From contig NZ_JACAOY010000025.1 of NCBI RefSeq assembly GCF_013385985.1, positions 115,803-139,802 on the forward strand: a stretch of 24,000 nt of DNA, written 5' to 3'. The position numbers and the translations under genes are program-made. The DNA is from Pseudomonas sp. B6002 (GTDB taxonomy: Bacteria > Pseudomonadota > Gammaproteobacteria > Pseudomonadales > Pseudomonadaceae). Shown here in pieces: positions 10,508 to 11,068 of the stretch (the first letter of the stretch is position 1; the number at the start of each line of letters is the position of its first letter). The notes under the pieces were generated by a model that worked only from the letters and a program-made list of their open reading frames with translations, ran no database searches and was not told the DNA's origin.

Positions 10508-11068
10508 TTACGGCATTCGTCGAACCACATGAGCGGTGCGCAAAGATTTGTTGATGCGCGCCAGTTCCTGCGCAGGGCTGACTTCTGGGCCCTGGTTCTG
10601 GGCGTTTACCAGTGCGACGTTCCACATTTCCACACGAATACCGGGCAGGCGCGACAGTGCGCGCAGGCAGGCCTGGTCTTGCGGGTCGTTGGGGTGGTAA
10701 ATGTTGGCGGTCTCGATGACCAGCGTGGTATTCGGAAAGCGCAGCTGAATCTCTTCCATGTATTGCTTGAACAGCACGCAGCACTGTCGGCACGGTGAGT
10801 TGTTGATGCTTACCACGATCTCTTGATAGCCGGCATCGAATACCCATTCATTGGCACGCAATGCCTCCAGGAAGTTGGCTTCGGCGTGGCCGTCCCGGTC
10901 GTTGAAGAATTTGCCGAATGGCTGGTTGCCCACGCCTTCCGCTTCGATCTTCGAAATCAGCACGGTGCGAAAGCCGCTGATGAAGTTGGCCTTGTACTCA
11001 TTGTCAAAGACGTAGGGGGCTTCGCCGGCCACCCATGCGCAGTTTTCGTTTTGCTGCGTCCAGGCCAT
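10508..11068 (-). CDS. Stand-alone zinc-dependent deaminase of the cytidine-deaminase (CDA) superfamily; substrate unknown
   Basis: The 186-aa ORF has a GGAGAG RBS. The motifs are H61-A-E63 (codons at 10888..10880) and S-P-C93-R-Q-C96 (10792..10781), with 28 residues between E and P. This is the H[AC]E-x(24-30)-PCxxC zinc/catalytic signature. The flanking segments fit the beta-strand/helix order of the deaminase fold. There is no signal peptide and no toxin-delivery domain. Confidence 0.75.
   Translation of the reverse strand: MAWTQQNENCAWVAGEAPYVFDNEYKANFISGFRTVLISKIEAEGVGNQPFGKFFNDRDGHAEANFLEALRANEWVFDAGYQEIVVSINNSPCRQCCVLFKQYMEEIQLRFPNTTLVIETANIYHPNDPQDQACLRALSRLPGIRVEMWNVALVNAQNQGPEVSPAQELARINKSLRTAHVVRRMP

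What the first reader, a model, noticed from the sequence alone, without database searches (positions are those of the whole stretch)
10508..11068. Orphan stand-alone CDA-superfamily deaminase between a tRNA cluster and a TetR regulator
The 186-aa protein carries the full zinc and catalytic signature G-H61-A-E63 ... S-P-C93-R-Q-C96, with 28 residues between the two motifs. The surrounding segments fit the five-stranded deaminase fold. It lacks the [TS]xEPC context of TadA and dCMP-type housekeeping enzymes. Its NNSPCRQC wording is closer to cytidine-deaminase, APOBEC-like and bacterial toxin-type deaminases. Unlike polymorphic-toxin deaminases of the DddA/SsdA type, it has no N-terminal delivery domain. 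No credible immunity-sized ORF lies on either side, because tRNA terminators begin about 30 nt after its stop. It interrupts an otherwise conserved gltX-tRNA-TetR-hydrolase arrangement. Possible roles include a regulated nucleic-acid or nucleotide editor (mutator, anti-phage, or RNA/tRNA editing) or a nucleoside or antibiotic deaminase. The sequence alone cannot decide the substrate.
Basis: partly seen in the sequence, partly recalled or inferred. Interest (0 to 1): 0.7.

Follow-up and report, generated by a model that had tools for sequence, protein, structure and literature searches.

The report
Stand-alone bacterial APOBEC-like deaminase gene
A small group of Pseudomonas species carries a single inserted gene for a 186-residue enzyme of the AID/APOBEC family (the family of animal DNA/RNA-mutating immune enzymes), with no toxin-delivery part or antidote gene, so it may be a self-used bacterial nucleic-acid editor; its activity has not been tested.

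Summary
Window 10508-11068 (minus strand) encodes a 186-aa protein with intact H61-A-E63 and P92-C93-R-Q-C96 motifs.

It is more specific than a "CDA-superfamily" enzyme. It passes the Pfam cut-offs of seven AID/APOBEC-like families. Every significant solved-structure match, by sequence and by predicted fold, is an APOBEC or AID. Housekeeping deaminase, defence and phage libraries give nothing.

The family is tiny. All close relatives are in the Pseudomonas fluorescens group (P. tolaasii, P. poae and others), always at this locus.

Relatives without the gene show that it sits in a 659-bp, single-gene, lower-GC insert that replaces about 33 bp between the tRNA terminator and the TetR promoter. 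The insert has no room for an immunity gene.

The gene is under purifying selection (dN/dS about 0.1). It has a strong ribosome-binding site and its own conserved two-block upstream motif, GGAATA-N17-GTT, which has the form of an ECF-sigma promoter.

Its remote bacterial relatives are toxin domains linked to contractile injection systems.

Best reading: a domesticated, cytoplasmic, conditionally expressed polynucleotide cytosine deaminase. Its role is open: defence against mobile DNA, mutator or RNA editor. It is a new variant of a known kind. Interest is 0.6.

The parts
10508..11068 (-). Coding sequence of the 186-aa AID/APOBEC-like deaminase (NVZ53752.1 / WP_176998709.1, Pseudomonas sp. B6002).
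   Evidence: ORF. Pfam SNAD4 1.1e-12, NAD1 6e-12, APOBEC_N 2.3e-10, all above the gathering cut-offs. dN/dS is about 0.1. Exact match to the NCBI protein.
10880..10888 (-). [quoted passage not shown]
   Evidence: Translation. H61 and E63 are invariant in the alignment restricted to hits of the two protein searches; across all 23 relatives E63 is invariant and H61 nearly so. hhalign aligns them to A3A H70/E72.
10781..10795 (-). Codons of P92-C93-R94-Q95-C96: two zinc ligands at the start of helix 3.
   Evidence: Translation. S91, P92, C93 and C96 are invariant across 23 relatives. They align to A3A S99-P100-C101...C106.
11075..11080 (-). Shine-Dalgarno sequence GGAGAG, 6 nt upstream of the ATG.
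   Evidence: Sequence. Conserved in most orthologous loci (GGAGAG, GGAGTC or GGAGAA).
11104..11129 (-). Conserved promoter-like motif: GGAATAAA (11129->11122), a 14-nt variable spacer, then CGTT (11107->11104). This equals GGAATA-N17-GTT, the form of an ECF-sigma promoter. It implies a 5' UTR of about 30 nt.
   Evidence: Both blocks and their spacing are invariant in the window and in all 12 other deaminase-positive loci aligned, four lineages in all, while the spacer varies. The form matches SigH/SigR-type ECF promoters (PMC10012870). The function is inferred. The pattern alone occurs at chance frequency in the window.
10490..11148 (.). The single-gene insert (about 659 bp, GC 56%) that is present here and absent from related genomes, where about 33 bp of unrelated filler sits instead.
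   Evidence: blastn and junction alignments against empty-site loci L010, L012, L015 and L017-L019. GC and GC3 values. No flanking direct or inverted repeats.
9906..10416 (+). Context: tRNA-Ala(GGC)/tRNA-Glu(UUC) pair, duplicated, convergent with the deaminase gene.
   Evidence: ARAGORN and Rfam. The sequences are identical in deaminase-positive genomes and in the closest empty-site genomes.
10442..10470 (+). Context: intrinsic terminator hairpin of the tRNA operon. It is conserved in the empty-site genomes and lies just left of the insert boundary.
   Evidence: inverted repeat I1.
11180..11202 (.). Context: perfect palindrome AATATTATTA-TGG-TAATAATATT, the presumed TetR operator. It overlaps a sigma-70-like promoter, TTGCCA-N16-TAATAT (11174-11201), for the TetR operon. 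It lies outside the insert.
   Evidence: It is conserved in the empty-site genomes, so it predates the insertion.
11228..11767 (+). Context: TetR/AcrR-family regulator (179 aa). It is divergent from the deaminase gene and is the first gene of a conserved run of genes: TetR, alpha/beta-hydrolase, 4HBT thioesterase and Dus.
   Evidence: Pfam. 640 homologues across Pseudomonas. Same arrangement with or without the deaminase.

Best explanation
The gene encodes a functional, stand-alone bacterial member of the AID/APOBEC-like (AAD) deaminase clade. It entered an ancestor within the P. fluorescens group as a minimal cassette of about 660 bp holding a promoter, a ribosome-binding site and the ORF. 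The insertion point lies between the tRNA-operon terminator and the TetR promoter. The gene has since been kept by purifying selection.

Inferred mechanism: a Zn2+ ion held by H61, C93 and C96 activates water, and E63 shuttles the proton, converting cytosine to uracil in a single-stranded polynucleotide, most likely ssDNA. Residues matching the APOBEC target-cytidine pocket grip the substrate: T35, N56, S91-P92 and Y124 of the beta4-alpha4 loop.

The protein has no signal or delivery domain and no immunity partner, so it most likely acts inside the producing cell. Its conserved upstream motif has the form of an ECF-sigma promoter, so it is probably made only under particular conditions. The consequence would be uracilation and C-to-T mutation of exposed single-stranded nucleic acid. 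I rank restriction of phage, plasmid or conjugative ssDNA first, and stress-induced self-mutagenesis or RNA editing next.

Shown here: gene reality, family membership, fold, cassette boundaries, selection and distribution. Inferred: catalytic activity, polynucleotide substrate, promoter type, site of action and biological role.
For: Family and fold:
- Seven AAD Pfam families score above their gathering cut-offs (SNAD4, NAD1, APOBEC_N, APOBEC1, APOBEC2, NAD2, APOBEC4_like). No dCMP/CDA family appears.
- All PDB sequence hits are APOBECs with the single protein. A Pseudomonas-only profile gives 17 APOBEC/AID hits and one chance hit at E=3.6. A wider profile gives APOBEC3G at 7e-18.
- The AlphaFold2 model (pLDDT 73.7, core above 85) has the APOBEC order of elements, including alpha4 between beta4 and beta5 and two extra C-terminal helices.
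- The top 50 Foldseek PDB hits are all AID/APOBEC, with E down to 2e-9 and TM 0.5-0.65.
- hhalign to human A3A gives 94% probability. It aligns H61/E63/SPC/C96/Y124 to H70/E72/S99-C101/C106/Y130. T35 and N56 are conserved across relatives.

Functional gene:
- dN/dS is 0.09-0.11 between lineages with dS 0.8-1.0. The flanking genes have dS 0.65-0.84, so the gene has co-diverged with its neighbourhood.
- A ribosome-binding site and a two-block upstream motif are conserved in all 13 positive loci, the window included.

Not a classic toxin:
- The whole protein is the deaminase domain.
- The insert of about 659 bp holds nothing else.
- No secretion-system or toxin genes were found among the window ORFs that were scanned.
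- No homologue of the gene that follows the remote relative's deaminase is present in the window.

Foreign origin:
- GC is 57% and GC3 is 0.73, against 62-66% and 0.78-0.85 in the flanking genes.
- Empty sites in relatives retain the ancestral filler sequence.
Against: - There is no biochemical or expression evidence of any kind.
- The protein is acidic (pI 5.4, net charge about -4), which is unusual for an ssDNA binder.
- The Trp of the vertebrate SWSPC motif, which lines the cytidine pocket, is Asn here (N90).
- The structure model is only moderately confident. The first 28 residues, which are conserved in the family, are not modelled.
- The second model's alignment included a few eukaryotic AADs.
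- The ECF-promoter reading rests on resemblance to a consensus defined in actinobacteria. No cognate sigma factor was identified.
- An unrestrained cytoplasmic ssDNA deaminase would carry a mutational cost. Several strains carry truncated or frameshifted alleles.
- PADLOC gives no defence-system match, and the gene does not lie in a defence island.
Confidence: 0.6

Rival explanations
1. It is an orphan toxin or effector: either a stand-alone cassette left from a polymorphic-toxin or contractile-injection-system deaminase, or a cargo effector exported by a secretion system encoded elsewhere. In that case the immunity gene would lie at another locus, or Ung-dependent repair would provide protection.
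For: The nearest bacterial relatives outside Pseudomonas are toxin-like.
- P0050 (1224 aa) joins an eCIS_core/DUF4157 domain to a C-terminal AAD domain.
- P0016 lies beside sheath and gp19-tube genes and is followed by an overlapping 365-aa gene.
- P0015 and P0021 have proline-rich N-terminal extensions.
- Iyer et al. 2011 place bacterial AADs in polymorphic toxins (PMC3239186).
- Loss-of-function alleles occur in some strains.
Against: - There is no delivery domain, no adjacent immunity gene and no room for one.
- No full-length toxin gene or secretion genes were found among the window ORFs that were scanned.
- dN/dS is about 0.1 and the gene has co-diverged with core flanking genes, rather than showing the rapid divergence typical of toxin cassettes.
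- The chromosomal position is fixed in four lineages.
- No plasmid or phage copies were found.
Confidence: 0.15
2. It is an RNA C-to-U editing enzyme acting on tRNA or mRNA in the producer cell, in the manner of APOBEC1.
For: Some AADs edit RNA (APOBEC1, A3A; established knowledge). APOBEC3H and A3G structures with bound RNA are among the fold matches. The gene sits next to a tRNA cluster. An RNA substrate would explain why the cell tolerates the enzyme without an immunity protein.
Against: The adjacent tRNA-Ala and tRNA-Glu genes are identical in deaminase-positive genomes and in the closest deaminase-free genomes. No encoded C therefore needs correcting in them. The tRNA adjacency exists in all relatives and predates the insertion. 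The gene is dispensable in sister species. No RNA-binding accessory domain is present.
Confidence: 0.12
3. It deaminates a free nucleoside, a nucleotide or a small molecule, as cytidine/dCMP/dCTP deaminases and blasticidin-S-type antibiotic deaminases do. It would then be a metabolic or resistance enzyme, or a nucleotide-depleting one.
For: The zinc and catalytic motif is shared by the whole superfamily. The protein is acidic. Bacterial dCTP deaminases that deplete nucleotides are known anti-phage enzymes (bioRxiv 10.1101/2021.04.26.441389, listed).
Against: No match to dCMP_cyt_deam or CDA families was found, and none to NCBIfam or PADLOC deaminase models. Solved nucleotide deaminases appear only at E=0.44 or worse. 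Viral dCMP deaminases match the fold weakly, with TM about 0.4. The APOBEC-specific elements are present: alpha4, two C-terminal helices and a Tyr-bearing loop 7. To my knowledge no AAD-clade member works on free nucleotides as its physiological substrate (established knowledge).
Confidence: 0.08
4. It is catalytically inert: a decaying remnant, or a nucleic-acid-binding protein that no longer deaminates, as is argued for APOBEC2 and APOBEC4.
For: The Trp of SWSPC is replaced by Asn. Truncated and frameshifted alleles exist, and one carries C96R. APOBEC2 is among the matches.
Against: All four catalytic and zinc residues, and T35, N56 and Y124, are kept in the window protein and its five full-length relatives. 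dN/dS is about 0.1 over dS of about 0.9. The ribosome-binding site and promoter-like motif are conserved.
Confidence: 0.05

Closest known systems
Vertebrate AID/APOBEC deaminases (APOBEC3G/3H/3F/3C, AID, APOBEC1, APOBEC2)
   Same: - H-x-E and P-C-x-x-C zinc site.
- Same predicted order of secondary-structure elements, including alpha4 and two C-terminal helices.
- Loop 7 with the conserved Tyr: ANIYHPNDP here, against ARIYDYDP in A3A and ARLYYFWDP in A3G.
- Single-domain size of about 180-200 aa.
- They are the only solved structures matched by sequence or fold.
   Different: - Only 17-24% identity.
- Asn instead of Trp before SPC.
- Acidic rather than neutral or basic.
- A family-specific conserved N-terminus (MAWxQQ..CAWVAGEAPY).
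- Bacterial and chromosomal, transcribed from a bacterial promoter.
- The substrate is untested.
Eukaryotic non-classical AAD clades SNAD4 and NAD1 (Krishnan et al. 2018, PMC5889660)
   Same: These are the best-scoring Pfam families (48.6 and 46.5 bits against a cut-off of 27). Both are compact AAD domains.
   Different: SNADs carry signal peptides and are secreted, and NAD1 is found in animals. The Pseudomonas protein has no signal sequence. The scores are well below those of true members, for example 325 bits for P0013.
Bacterial AID/APOBEC-like toxin domains (Wolbachia phage B3gp45 and P. brassicacearum PSEBR_m1207 of Iyer et al. 2011, and the eCIS/DUF4157-linked proteins found here)
   Same: All are bacterial AAD-clade domains. 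The remote homology is detectable (E 1e-7 to 1e-4 from the Pseudomonas profile). [quoted passage not shown]
   Different: Those domains sit at the C-terminus of RHS, SpvB or eCIS-core proteins, or beside injection-system genes with a following gene. This one is stand-alone, lacks an immunity gene, is under purifying selection and is fixed at a core-genome site. The P. brassicacearum locus is empty, so PSEBR_m1207 is a different gene. I could not retrieve its sequence to compare.
DddA, SsdA and other bacterial toxin deaminases (C-terminal-hairpin division: DYW-like, SCP1.201, BURPS668_1122)
   Same: They are bacterial cytosine deaminases acting on DNA, with the same zinc chemistry.
   Different: They belong to a different structural division. 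The DddA-like Pfam model scores only E=0.11, below its cut-off, and none appears among the PDB matches. They are T6SS toxins with adjacent immunity genes.
Housekeeping TadA, CDA and dCMP deaminases
   Same: Same superfamily fold and the same H/C-x-E ... P-C-x-x-C chemistry.
   Different: No family-level match was found. They are universal, whereas this gene occurs in a handful of species.

Membership tests
AID/APOBEC-like (AAD) clade of the deaminase superfamily | H-x-E in helix 2 and P-C-x-x-C at the start of helix 3 (zinc and catalytic site). | tested here: met
   H61-A-E63 and P92-C93-R-Q-C96. These residues are invariant in the window protein and its five full-length relatives and invariant or nearly so across 23 remote relatives.
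AID/APOBEC-like (AAD) clade of the deaminase superfamily | Score above the curated cut-off of AAD profile families, and better than any other deaminase family. | tested here: met
   Scores and cut-offs: SNAD4 48.6/27, NAD1 46.5/27, APOBEC_N 41.2/25, APOBEC1 35.5/27, APOBEC2 35.3/26.8, NAD2 29/27, APOBEC4_like 27.1/26.7. DddA-like reaches only 12.8/25, and no dCMP_cyt_deam hit appears.
AID/APOBEC-like (AAD) clade of the deaminase superfamily | Helix-4 division topology (alpha4 between beta4 and beta5) plus two additional helices after strand 5. | tested here: met
   The AlphaFold2 model shows E115-122, H129-139, E144-148, H151-157 and H165-184. A Pseudomonas-only alignment gives the same order at low confidence. 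The Foldseek top 50 are all AID/APOBEC. This rests on models, not on an experimental structure.
AID/APOBEC-like (AAD) clade of the deaminase superfamily | Extended beta4-alpha4 loop (loop 7) with the conserved Tyr, and a large hydrophobic residue (Met) at the end of strand 5. | tested here: met
   A121-N-I-Y124-H-P-N-D-P aligns without gaps to the ARLY/ARIY loops of A3G, A3F and A3A. M148 ends strand 5. Features are as listed by Iyer et al. 2011.
AID/APOBEC-like (AAD) clade of the deaminase superfamily | Trp immediately before SPC (SWSPC). This is typical of vertebrate members and of Wolbachia B3gp45, but not of all AADs. | tested here: not met
   The sequence is N89-N90-S-P-C. Remote bacterial relatives have NNSPC, TRSPC or KRSPC, and the eukaryotic hits have NYSPC.
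AID/APOBEC-like (AAD) clade of the deaminase superfamily | C-to-U deamination of single-stranded DNA or RNA. | not testable with these tools
   This needs in vitro oligonucleotide assays, or mutator assays in an ung-deficient host.
Bacterial polymorphic-toxin / contractile-injection deaminase toxins | N-terminal trafficking or delivery module, or location as a cassette next to a full-length toxin gene. | tested here: not met
   The 186 aa are the deaminase domain alone. There is no hydrophobic N-terminus. The neighbours are gltX, tRNAs, TetR, a hydrolase, a thioesterase and Dus.
Bacterial polymorphic-toxin / contractile-injection deaminase toxins | Adjacent cognate immunity gene. | tested here: not met
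   The insert is about 659 bp, of which 561 bp is the ORF. No homologue of the gene that follows the eCIS-linked relative is present in the window.
Bacterial polymorphic-toxin / contractile-injection deaminase toxins | Rapid divergence and frequent displacement of the toxin domain between strains. | tested here: not met
   dN/dS is 0.09-0.11 and dS is similar to that of the flanking core genes. The locus is the same in four lineages.
Housekeeping nucleoside/nucleotide/tRNA deaminases (CDA, dCMP deaminase, TadA) | Match to dCMP_cyt_deam-type or NCBIfam equivalog models, and near-universal presence in the genus. | tested here: not met
   No such Pfam or NCBIfam hit was found. There are only 8 clusters at 90% identity among 5.8 billion proteins, and one cluster at 50% identity among 1.84 billion. 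The gene is absent from P. orientalis, P. brassicacearum and other species at this locus.
Known anti-phage defence systems | Match to a described defence protein model. | tested here: not met
   PADLOC gives only a chance-level SduA hit, E=0.027. The library dates from 2023, so newer systems are not covered.

The most novel reading that the evidence does not exclude
This is a domesticated bacterial APOBEC: an endogenous, ECF-sigma-controlled ssDNA cytosine deaminase that the cell uses on itself or on invading single-stranded DNA (phage, plasmid or conjugative). It would be an APOBEC3-like innate restriction or programmed-mutagenesis function in a free-living bacterium. It would also be a living intermediate between toxin-type bacterial AADs and the eukaryotic immune AADs.
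Probability: 0.25. Interest if true: 0.85.

Novelty: new variant of a known kind. Interest (0 to 1): 0.6.

Why it matters
AID/APOBEC enzymes drive antibody diversification, antiviral hypermutation and a major cancer mutation signature. They are thought to descend from bacterial toxin deaminases (PMC3239186, PMC5889660). The bacterial members discussed in the papers I could search are toxin domains.

This gene is a compact (186 aa), stand-alone member without an immunity gene, kept by purifying selection, in culturable and genetically tractable Pseudomonas. It makes three questions directly testable:
- what an AAD does when a bacterium keeps it for itself;
- how a cell tolerates or regulates such an enzyme;
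- what the ancestral substrate preference was.

If it is active on ssDNA, its small size and distance from the animal enzymes could also interest base-editor developers. If it proves to be an anti-phage or anti-plasmid factor, it would add a new mechanism, hypermutation of invader DNA, to bacterial immunity.

Tried and rejected
- **Housekeeping or nucleotide deaminase.** Rejected: no dCMP/CDA/TadA family match and no NCBIfam match, and the gene is not universal.
- **Known defence system.** PADLOC gave nothing meaningful.
- **Phage or plasmid origin.** There were no PHROG hits and no tblastn hits in 50,697 phage or 72,556 plasmid records. A pattern scan of the IMG/VR viral contigs, which finds close relatives only, also found none. 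The BFVD fold search gave only weak dCMP-deaminase matches.
- **Mobile-element signature.** No target-site duplication or terminal inverted repeats flank the insert.
- **Riboswitch or known RNA in the leader.** Rfam finds only the four tRNAs.
- **Link to the adjacent tRNAs (editing).** The tRNA genes are identical with and without the deaminase.
- **Control by the neighbouring TetR.** Downgraded. The operator and promoter are conserved in the empty-site genomes and lie about 50 bp beyond the cassette's own conserved -35-like block. A weak minus-strand sigma-70-like site overlapping the operator exists, so some cross-talk cannot be excluded.
- **Identity with PSEBR_m1207 of Iyer et al. 2011.** The P. 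brassicacearum locus is empty, and no P. brassicacearum protein is among the listed members of the close clusters. The sequence itself could not be fetched, and the paper's supplements are not held.
- **Prior experimental screening.** The protein is not in the supplementary tables of the 1,483-deaminase base-editor screen. No paper links APOBEC and P. tolaasii.
- **First structure model.** The model from six close homologues was too poor to use (pLDDT 45.5).
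Full report
**1.

Window 10508-11068 on the minus strand is a 186-codon ORF with an ATG start. 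A GGAGAG ribosome-binding site lies 6 nt upstream. The translation carries H61-A-E63 and S91-P92-C93-R-Q-C96, with 28 residues between the two motifs.

Four tRNA genes (Ala-GGC and Glu-UUC, each twice) lie at 9906-10416 and are convergent with the ORF. The tRNA-operon terminator hairpin is at 10442-10470, which is 38 nt beyond the stop codon. A TetR-family gene starts divergently at 11228.

The exact protein is NVZ53752.1 / WP_176998709.1 of Pseudomonas sp. B6002. NCBI names it "hypothetical protein". UniRef names its P. tolaasii and P. poae relatives "APOBEC-like N-terminal domain-containing protein".

**2. It is a real, constrained gene**

I compared orthologues from four lineages: the window with L001 and L025, L002-L007 with L027, L008 and L009, and L026.

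- dN/dS is 0.09-0.11 between lineages, at dS 0.8-1.0, and 0.02 for the closest pair.
- The flanking tetR, hydrolase and thioesterase genes show dS 0.65-0.84 for the same pairs. The gene has therefore diverged together with its neighbourhood, not as a recent arrival.
- Some strains carry damaged alleles. These include an N-terminally truncated allele that also has C96R (P0006), an allele that departs from the family sequence after about residue 120 and looks frameshifted (P0008), and shorter members (P0037, P0041 and P0044). The gene is therefore dispensable.

**3. Which family it belongs to**

*Sequence profiles.* Pfam places it above the curated cut-offs of seven AID/APOBEC-like families, led by SNAD4 (1.1e-12), NAD1 (6e-12) and APOBEC_N (2.3e-10). 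The DddA-like toxin model is sub-threshold (E=0.11) and no dCMP/CDA model appears. NCBIfam gives nothing. PADLOC gives only a chance-level hit. PHROGs gives nothing.

*Solved structures by sequence.*
- With the single sequence, all hits are APOBECs.
- With a Pseudomonas-only profile, 17 of 18 listed hits are APOBEC/AID and the other is a chance hit at E=3.6.
- With a wider profile, APOBEC3G reaches 7e-18, while the first non-AAD deaminase, T4 dCMP deaminase, sits at E=0.44.

*Predicted structure.* An AlphaFold2 model from 23 sequences has pLDDT 73.7, pTM 0.73 and a core of 85-92. Its order of elements is alpha1-beta1-beta2-alpha2-beta3-alpha3-beta4-alpha4-beta5-alpha5-alpha6. That is the helix-4 division with two extra C-terminal helices that Iyer et al. 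use to define the AAD clade. A poorer model from six close homologues gave the same order of elements from helix 2 onward. Foldseek against the PDB returned AID/APOBEC chains in all top 50 places, with E down to 1.8e-9 and TM 0.5-0.65.

*Active-site residues.* hhalign against human APOBEC3A, whose sequence I supplied from memory, gives 94% probability. It aligns:
- H61 and E63 with H70 and E72;
- S91-P92-C93 with S99-P100-C101;
- C96 with C106;
- Y124 with Y130.

By comparison with what is known of A3A-ssDNA complexes (my knowledge, not tested here), T35 and N56 sit where A3A T31 and N57 contact the target nucleotide. T35 is nearly invariant, and N56 is kept in most, across the remote relatives. 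The one pocket residue not kept is the Trp of SWSPC, which is N90 here.

**4. How rare it is**

Among 5.8 billion protein clusters, only eight match at E<=1e-3. All that carry a name are from Pseudomonas; the rest are unnamed metagenome or read-archive sequences 62-83% identical to the window protein. An exhaustive HMMER scan of 1.84 billion representatives found a single full-length cluster at 50% identity, some fragments, and ten remote hits at E 7e-7 to 2e-4.

The remote hits are of three kinds:
- Eukaryotic AADs, such as P0013.
- Toxin-like bacterial or metagenomic proteins. The P0016 cluster contains a 1224-aa protein with an eCIS_core/DUF4157 domain and a C-terminal AAD domain. P0016 itself lies beside sheath and gp19-tube genes and is followed by an overlapping 365-aa gene. 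P0015 and P0021 have proline-rich N-terminal extensions.
- One other stand-alone protein, P0014 (203 aa), on a 1.7-kb metagenome contig. It shares the family's N-terminal AWVAGEAP motif.

No relatives were found in phage or plasmid records by tblastn. Pattern scans of viral contigs, which find close relatives only, also found none. The metagenome scan found only close copies, and the one I examined (L026) sits at the same locus.

**5. The locus**

Every orthologue for which enough flanking DNA was recovered lies between the gltX-tRNA cluster and the TetR, alpha/beta-hydrolase, 4HBT-thioesterase and Dus genes. The TetR protein is conserved across the genus, with 640 homologues.

I looked up five lineages through their TetR orthologues: a P. 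poae-labelled group, P. orientalis, a widespread fluorescens-group lineage, and P. brassicacearum. In all of them the gltX-to-TetR gap is only about 840-900 bp and no deaminase is present.

Junction alignment shows that homology to the empty sites stops at window 10489 and resumes at about 11149. In the empty sites, about 33 bp of filler lies between these points, and the outgroup shares that filler. The extra segment here, 10490-11148, is about 659 bp. It has GC 56%, and the ORF has GC3 0.73, against 0.78-0.85 in the flanking genes. It holds only the ORF, 18 bp after the stop codon, and about 80 bp upstream. No direct or inverted repeats flank it.

In a small neighbour-joining tree of tetR plus dus, the deaminase-positive lineages are not cleanly monophyletic relative to three empty-site lineages. 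Yet the empty sites keep the ancestral filler. One old gain followed by spread or replacement through homologous recombination of the flanks is as likely as repeated loss. I could not resolve this.

**6. Regulation**

A perfect palindrome, AATATTATTA-TGG-TAATAATATT (11180-11202), overlaps a sigma-70-like TTGCCA-N16-TAATAT promoter for the TetR operon. It is conserved in the empty-site genomes. It therefore belongs to TetR autoregulation and predates the insert.

Inside the insert, the deaminase leader has two blocks that are invariant in the window and all 12 other positive loci I aligned, while the 14 nt between them vary. The blocks are GGAATAAA (11129->11122) and CGTT (11107->11104). Read as GGAATA-N17-GTT, this is the architecture of ECF-sigma promoters of the SigH/SigR type (PMC10012870). 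It would give a leader of about 30 nt.

This is an inference from conservation plus resemblance. The bare pattern occurs at chance frequency in the window, and I did not identify a cognate sigma factor. It suggests that the cassette brought its own conditional promoter and that the TetR adjacency is incidental.

**7. What it most likely does**

*Shown:* it is an AAD-clade protein with an intact catalytic site. It has no delivery domain, no signal sequence and no immunity partner. It is maintained by selection at a core-genome site.

*Inferred:* it is an active zinc-dependent cytosine-to-uracil deaminase working on single-stranded polynucleotide inside the producing cell, and it is expressed conditionally.

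Among biological roles, I rank restriction or hypermutation of invading ssDNA first, then stress-linked self-mutagenesis, then RNA editing. The evidence does not separate them.

Against a tRNA-editing link, the neighbouring tRNA genes are identical with and without the deaminase. Against the toxin reading stand the missing delivery and immunity parts and the low dN/dS. In its favour stand the toxin nature of the remote bacterial relatives and the occasional pseudogenes. Points of caution are the acidic pI of 5.4, the missing Trp, the unmodelled conserved N-terminus, and the complete lack of experimental data.

**8. Comparison with what is known**

Iyer et al. 2011 reported bacterial AAD-like domains in Wolbachia phage B3gp45 and in P. 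brassicacearum PSEBR_m1207, and linked the clade to RHS/SpvB toxins. Krishnan et al. 2018 treat bacterial toxin AADs as the ancestors of the eukaryotic AADs.

The P. brassicacearum locus examined here is empty, so PSEBR_m1207 is another gene. I could not retrieve it for comparison. I found no paper on this Pseudomonas protein, and it is not in the large APOBEC-domain base-editor screen.

The enzyme family is therefore known, and automated annotation already flags the domain. The configuration is what has not been described in anything I could search: stand-alone, without an immunity gene, selectively maintained, chromosomally fixed and carrying its own promoter. I rate it a new variant of a known kind, with interest 0.6.

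Noticed in passing
window 11104-11129 (minus strand): A two-block motif, GGAATAAA-N14-CGTT (equal to GGAATA-N17-GTT), has invariant blocks and spacing in the window and all 12 other deaminase-positive loci aligned, while the spacer varies. It resembles ECF-sigma (SigH/SigR-type) promoters. The cognate sigma factor in Pseudomonas is unknown.
   Followed up: partly
window 11174-11202: A perfect 10-3-10 palindrome, AATATTATTA-TGG-TAATAATATT, overlaps a sigma-70-like TTGCCA-N16-TAATAT promoter of the TetR operon. It is conserved across Pseudomonas, including genomes without the deaminase, so it is probably the TetR autoregulatory operator.
   Followed up: partly
proteins P0006, P0008, P0037, P0041, P0044 (relatives of window 10508-11068): Several strains carry damaged alleles of the deaminase: N-terminal truncation together with C96R, an apparent frameshift after about residue 120, and short fragments. 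This suggests repeated inactivation in one sub-lineage.
   Followed up: partly
L020 5642-9772 (metagenome contig, GC 73%): A remote AAD relative appears as split ORFs of 300, 485 and 225 aa. The first starts with an HExxH-type motif of the kind found in eCIS-core/DUF4157 domains. The ORFs lie beside contractile-sheath and gp19-tube genes and are followed by an overlapping 365-aa gene, a candidate immunity protein of unknown family.
   Followed up: partly
L024 390-1711 (metagenome contig, GC 67%): This contig holds the only other stand-alone relative, P0014 (203 aa). It shares the N-terminal AWVAGEAP motif and is preceded by a SnoaL/NTF2-like gene. The contig is too short to judge the context.
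   Followed up: no
window 14162-15496 (+): A 444-aa ORF has no Pfam match and an apparent internal duplication of a domain of about 150 aa. Its GC is lower (58.5%). It lies in a region after dus that differs between relatives, where other unannotated proteins of 240-427 aa, or HSP20, occupy the same place.
   Followed up: no
window 15632-19745: A cluster of three genes: a DUF1266 protein, a 592-aa protein with a C-terminal DUF805 domain (its counterpart in relatives is DjlB-like), and a convergent atypical Hsp70 (563 aa). It looks like an HscC/DjlB-type non-canonical Hsp70 module.
   Followed up: no
L015 4540-4770 and L016 718-982 (P. orientalis): The alpha/beta-hydrolase gene of the otherwise conserved TetR, hydrolase, thioesterase and Dus gene run is missing or reduced to a 74-aa remnant.
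   Followed up: no
window 9906-10416: The tRNA-Ala(GGC)/tRNA-Glu(UUC) pair is tandemly duplicated here and in most relatives. The search found only one copy in L005, and in L012 only one tRNA-Ala and no tRNA-Glu within four mismatches. Outgroup tRNA-Ala copies differ by paired (compensatory-looking) changes.
   Followed up: partly
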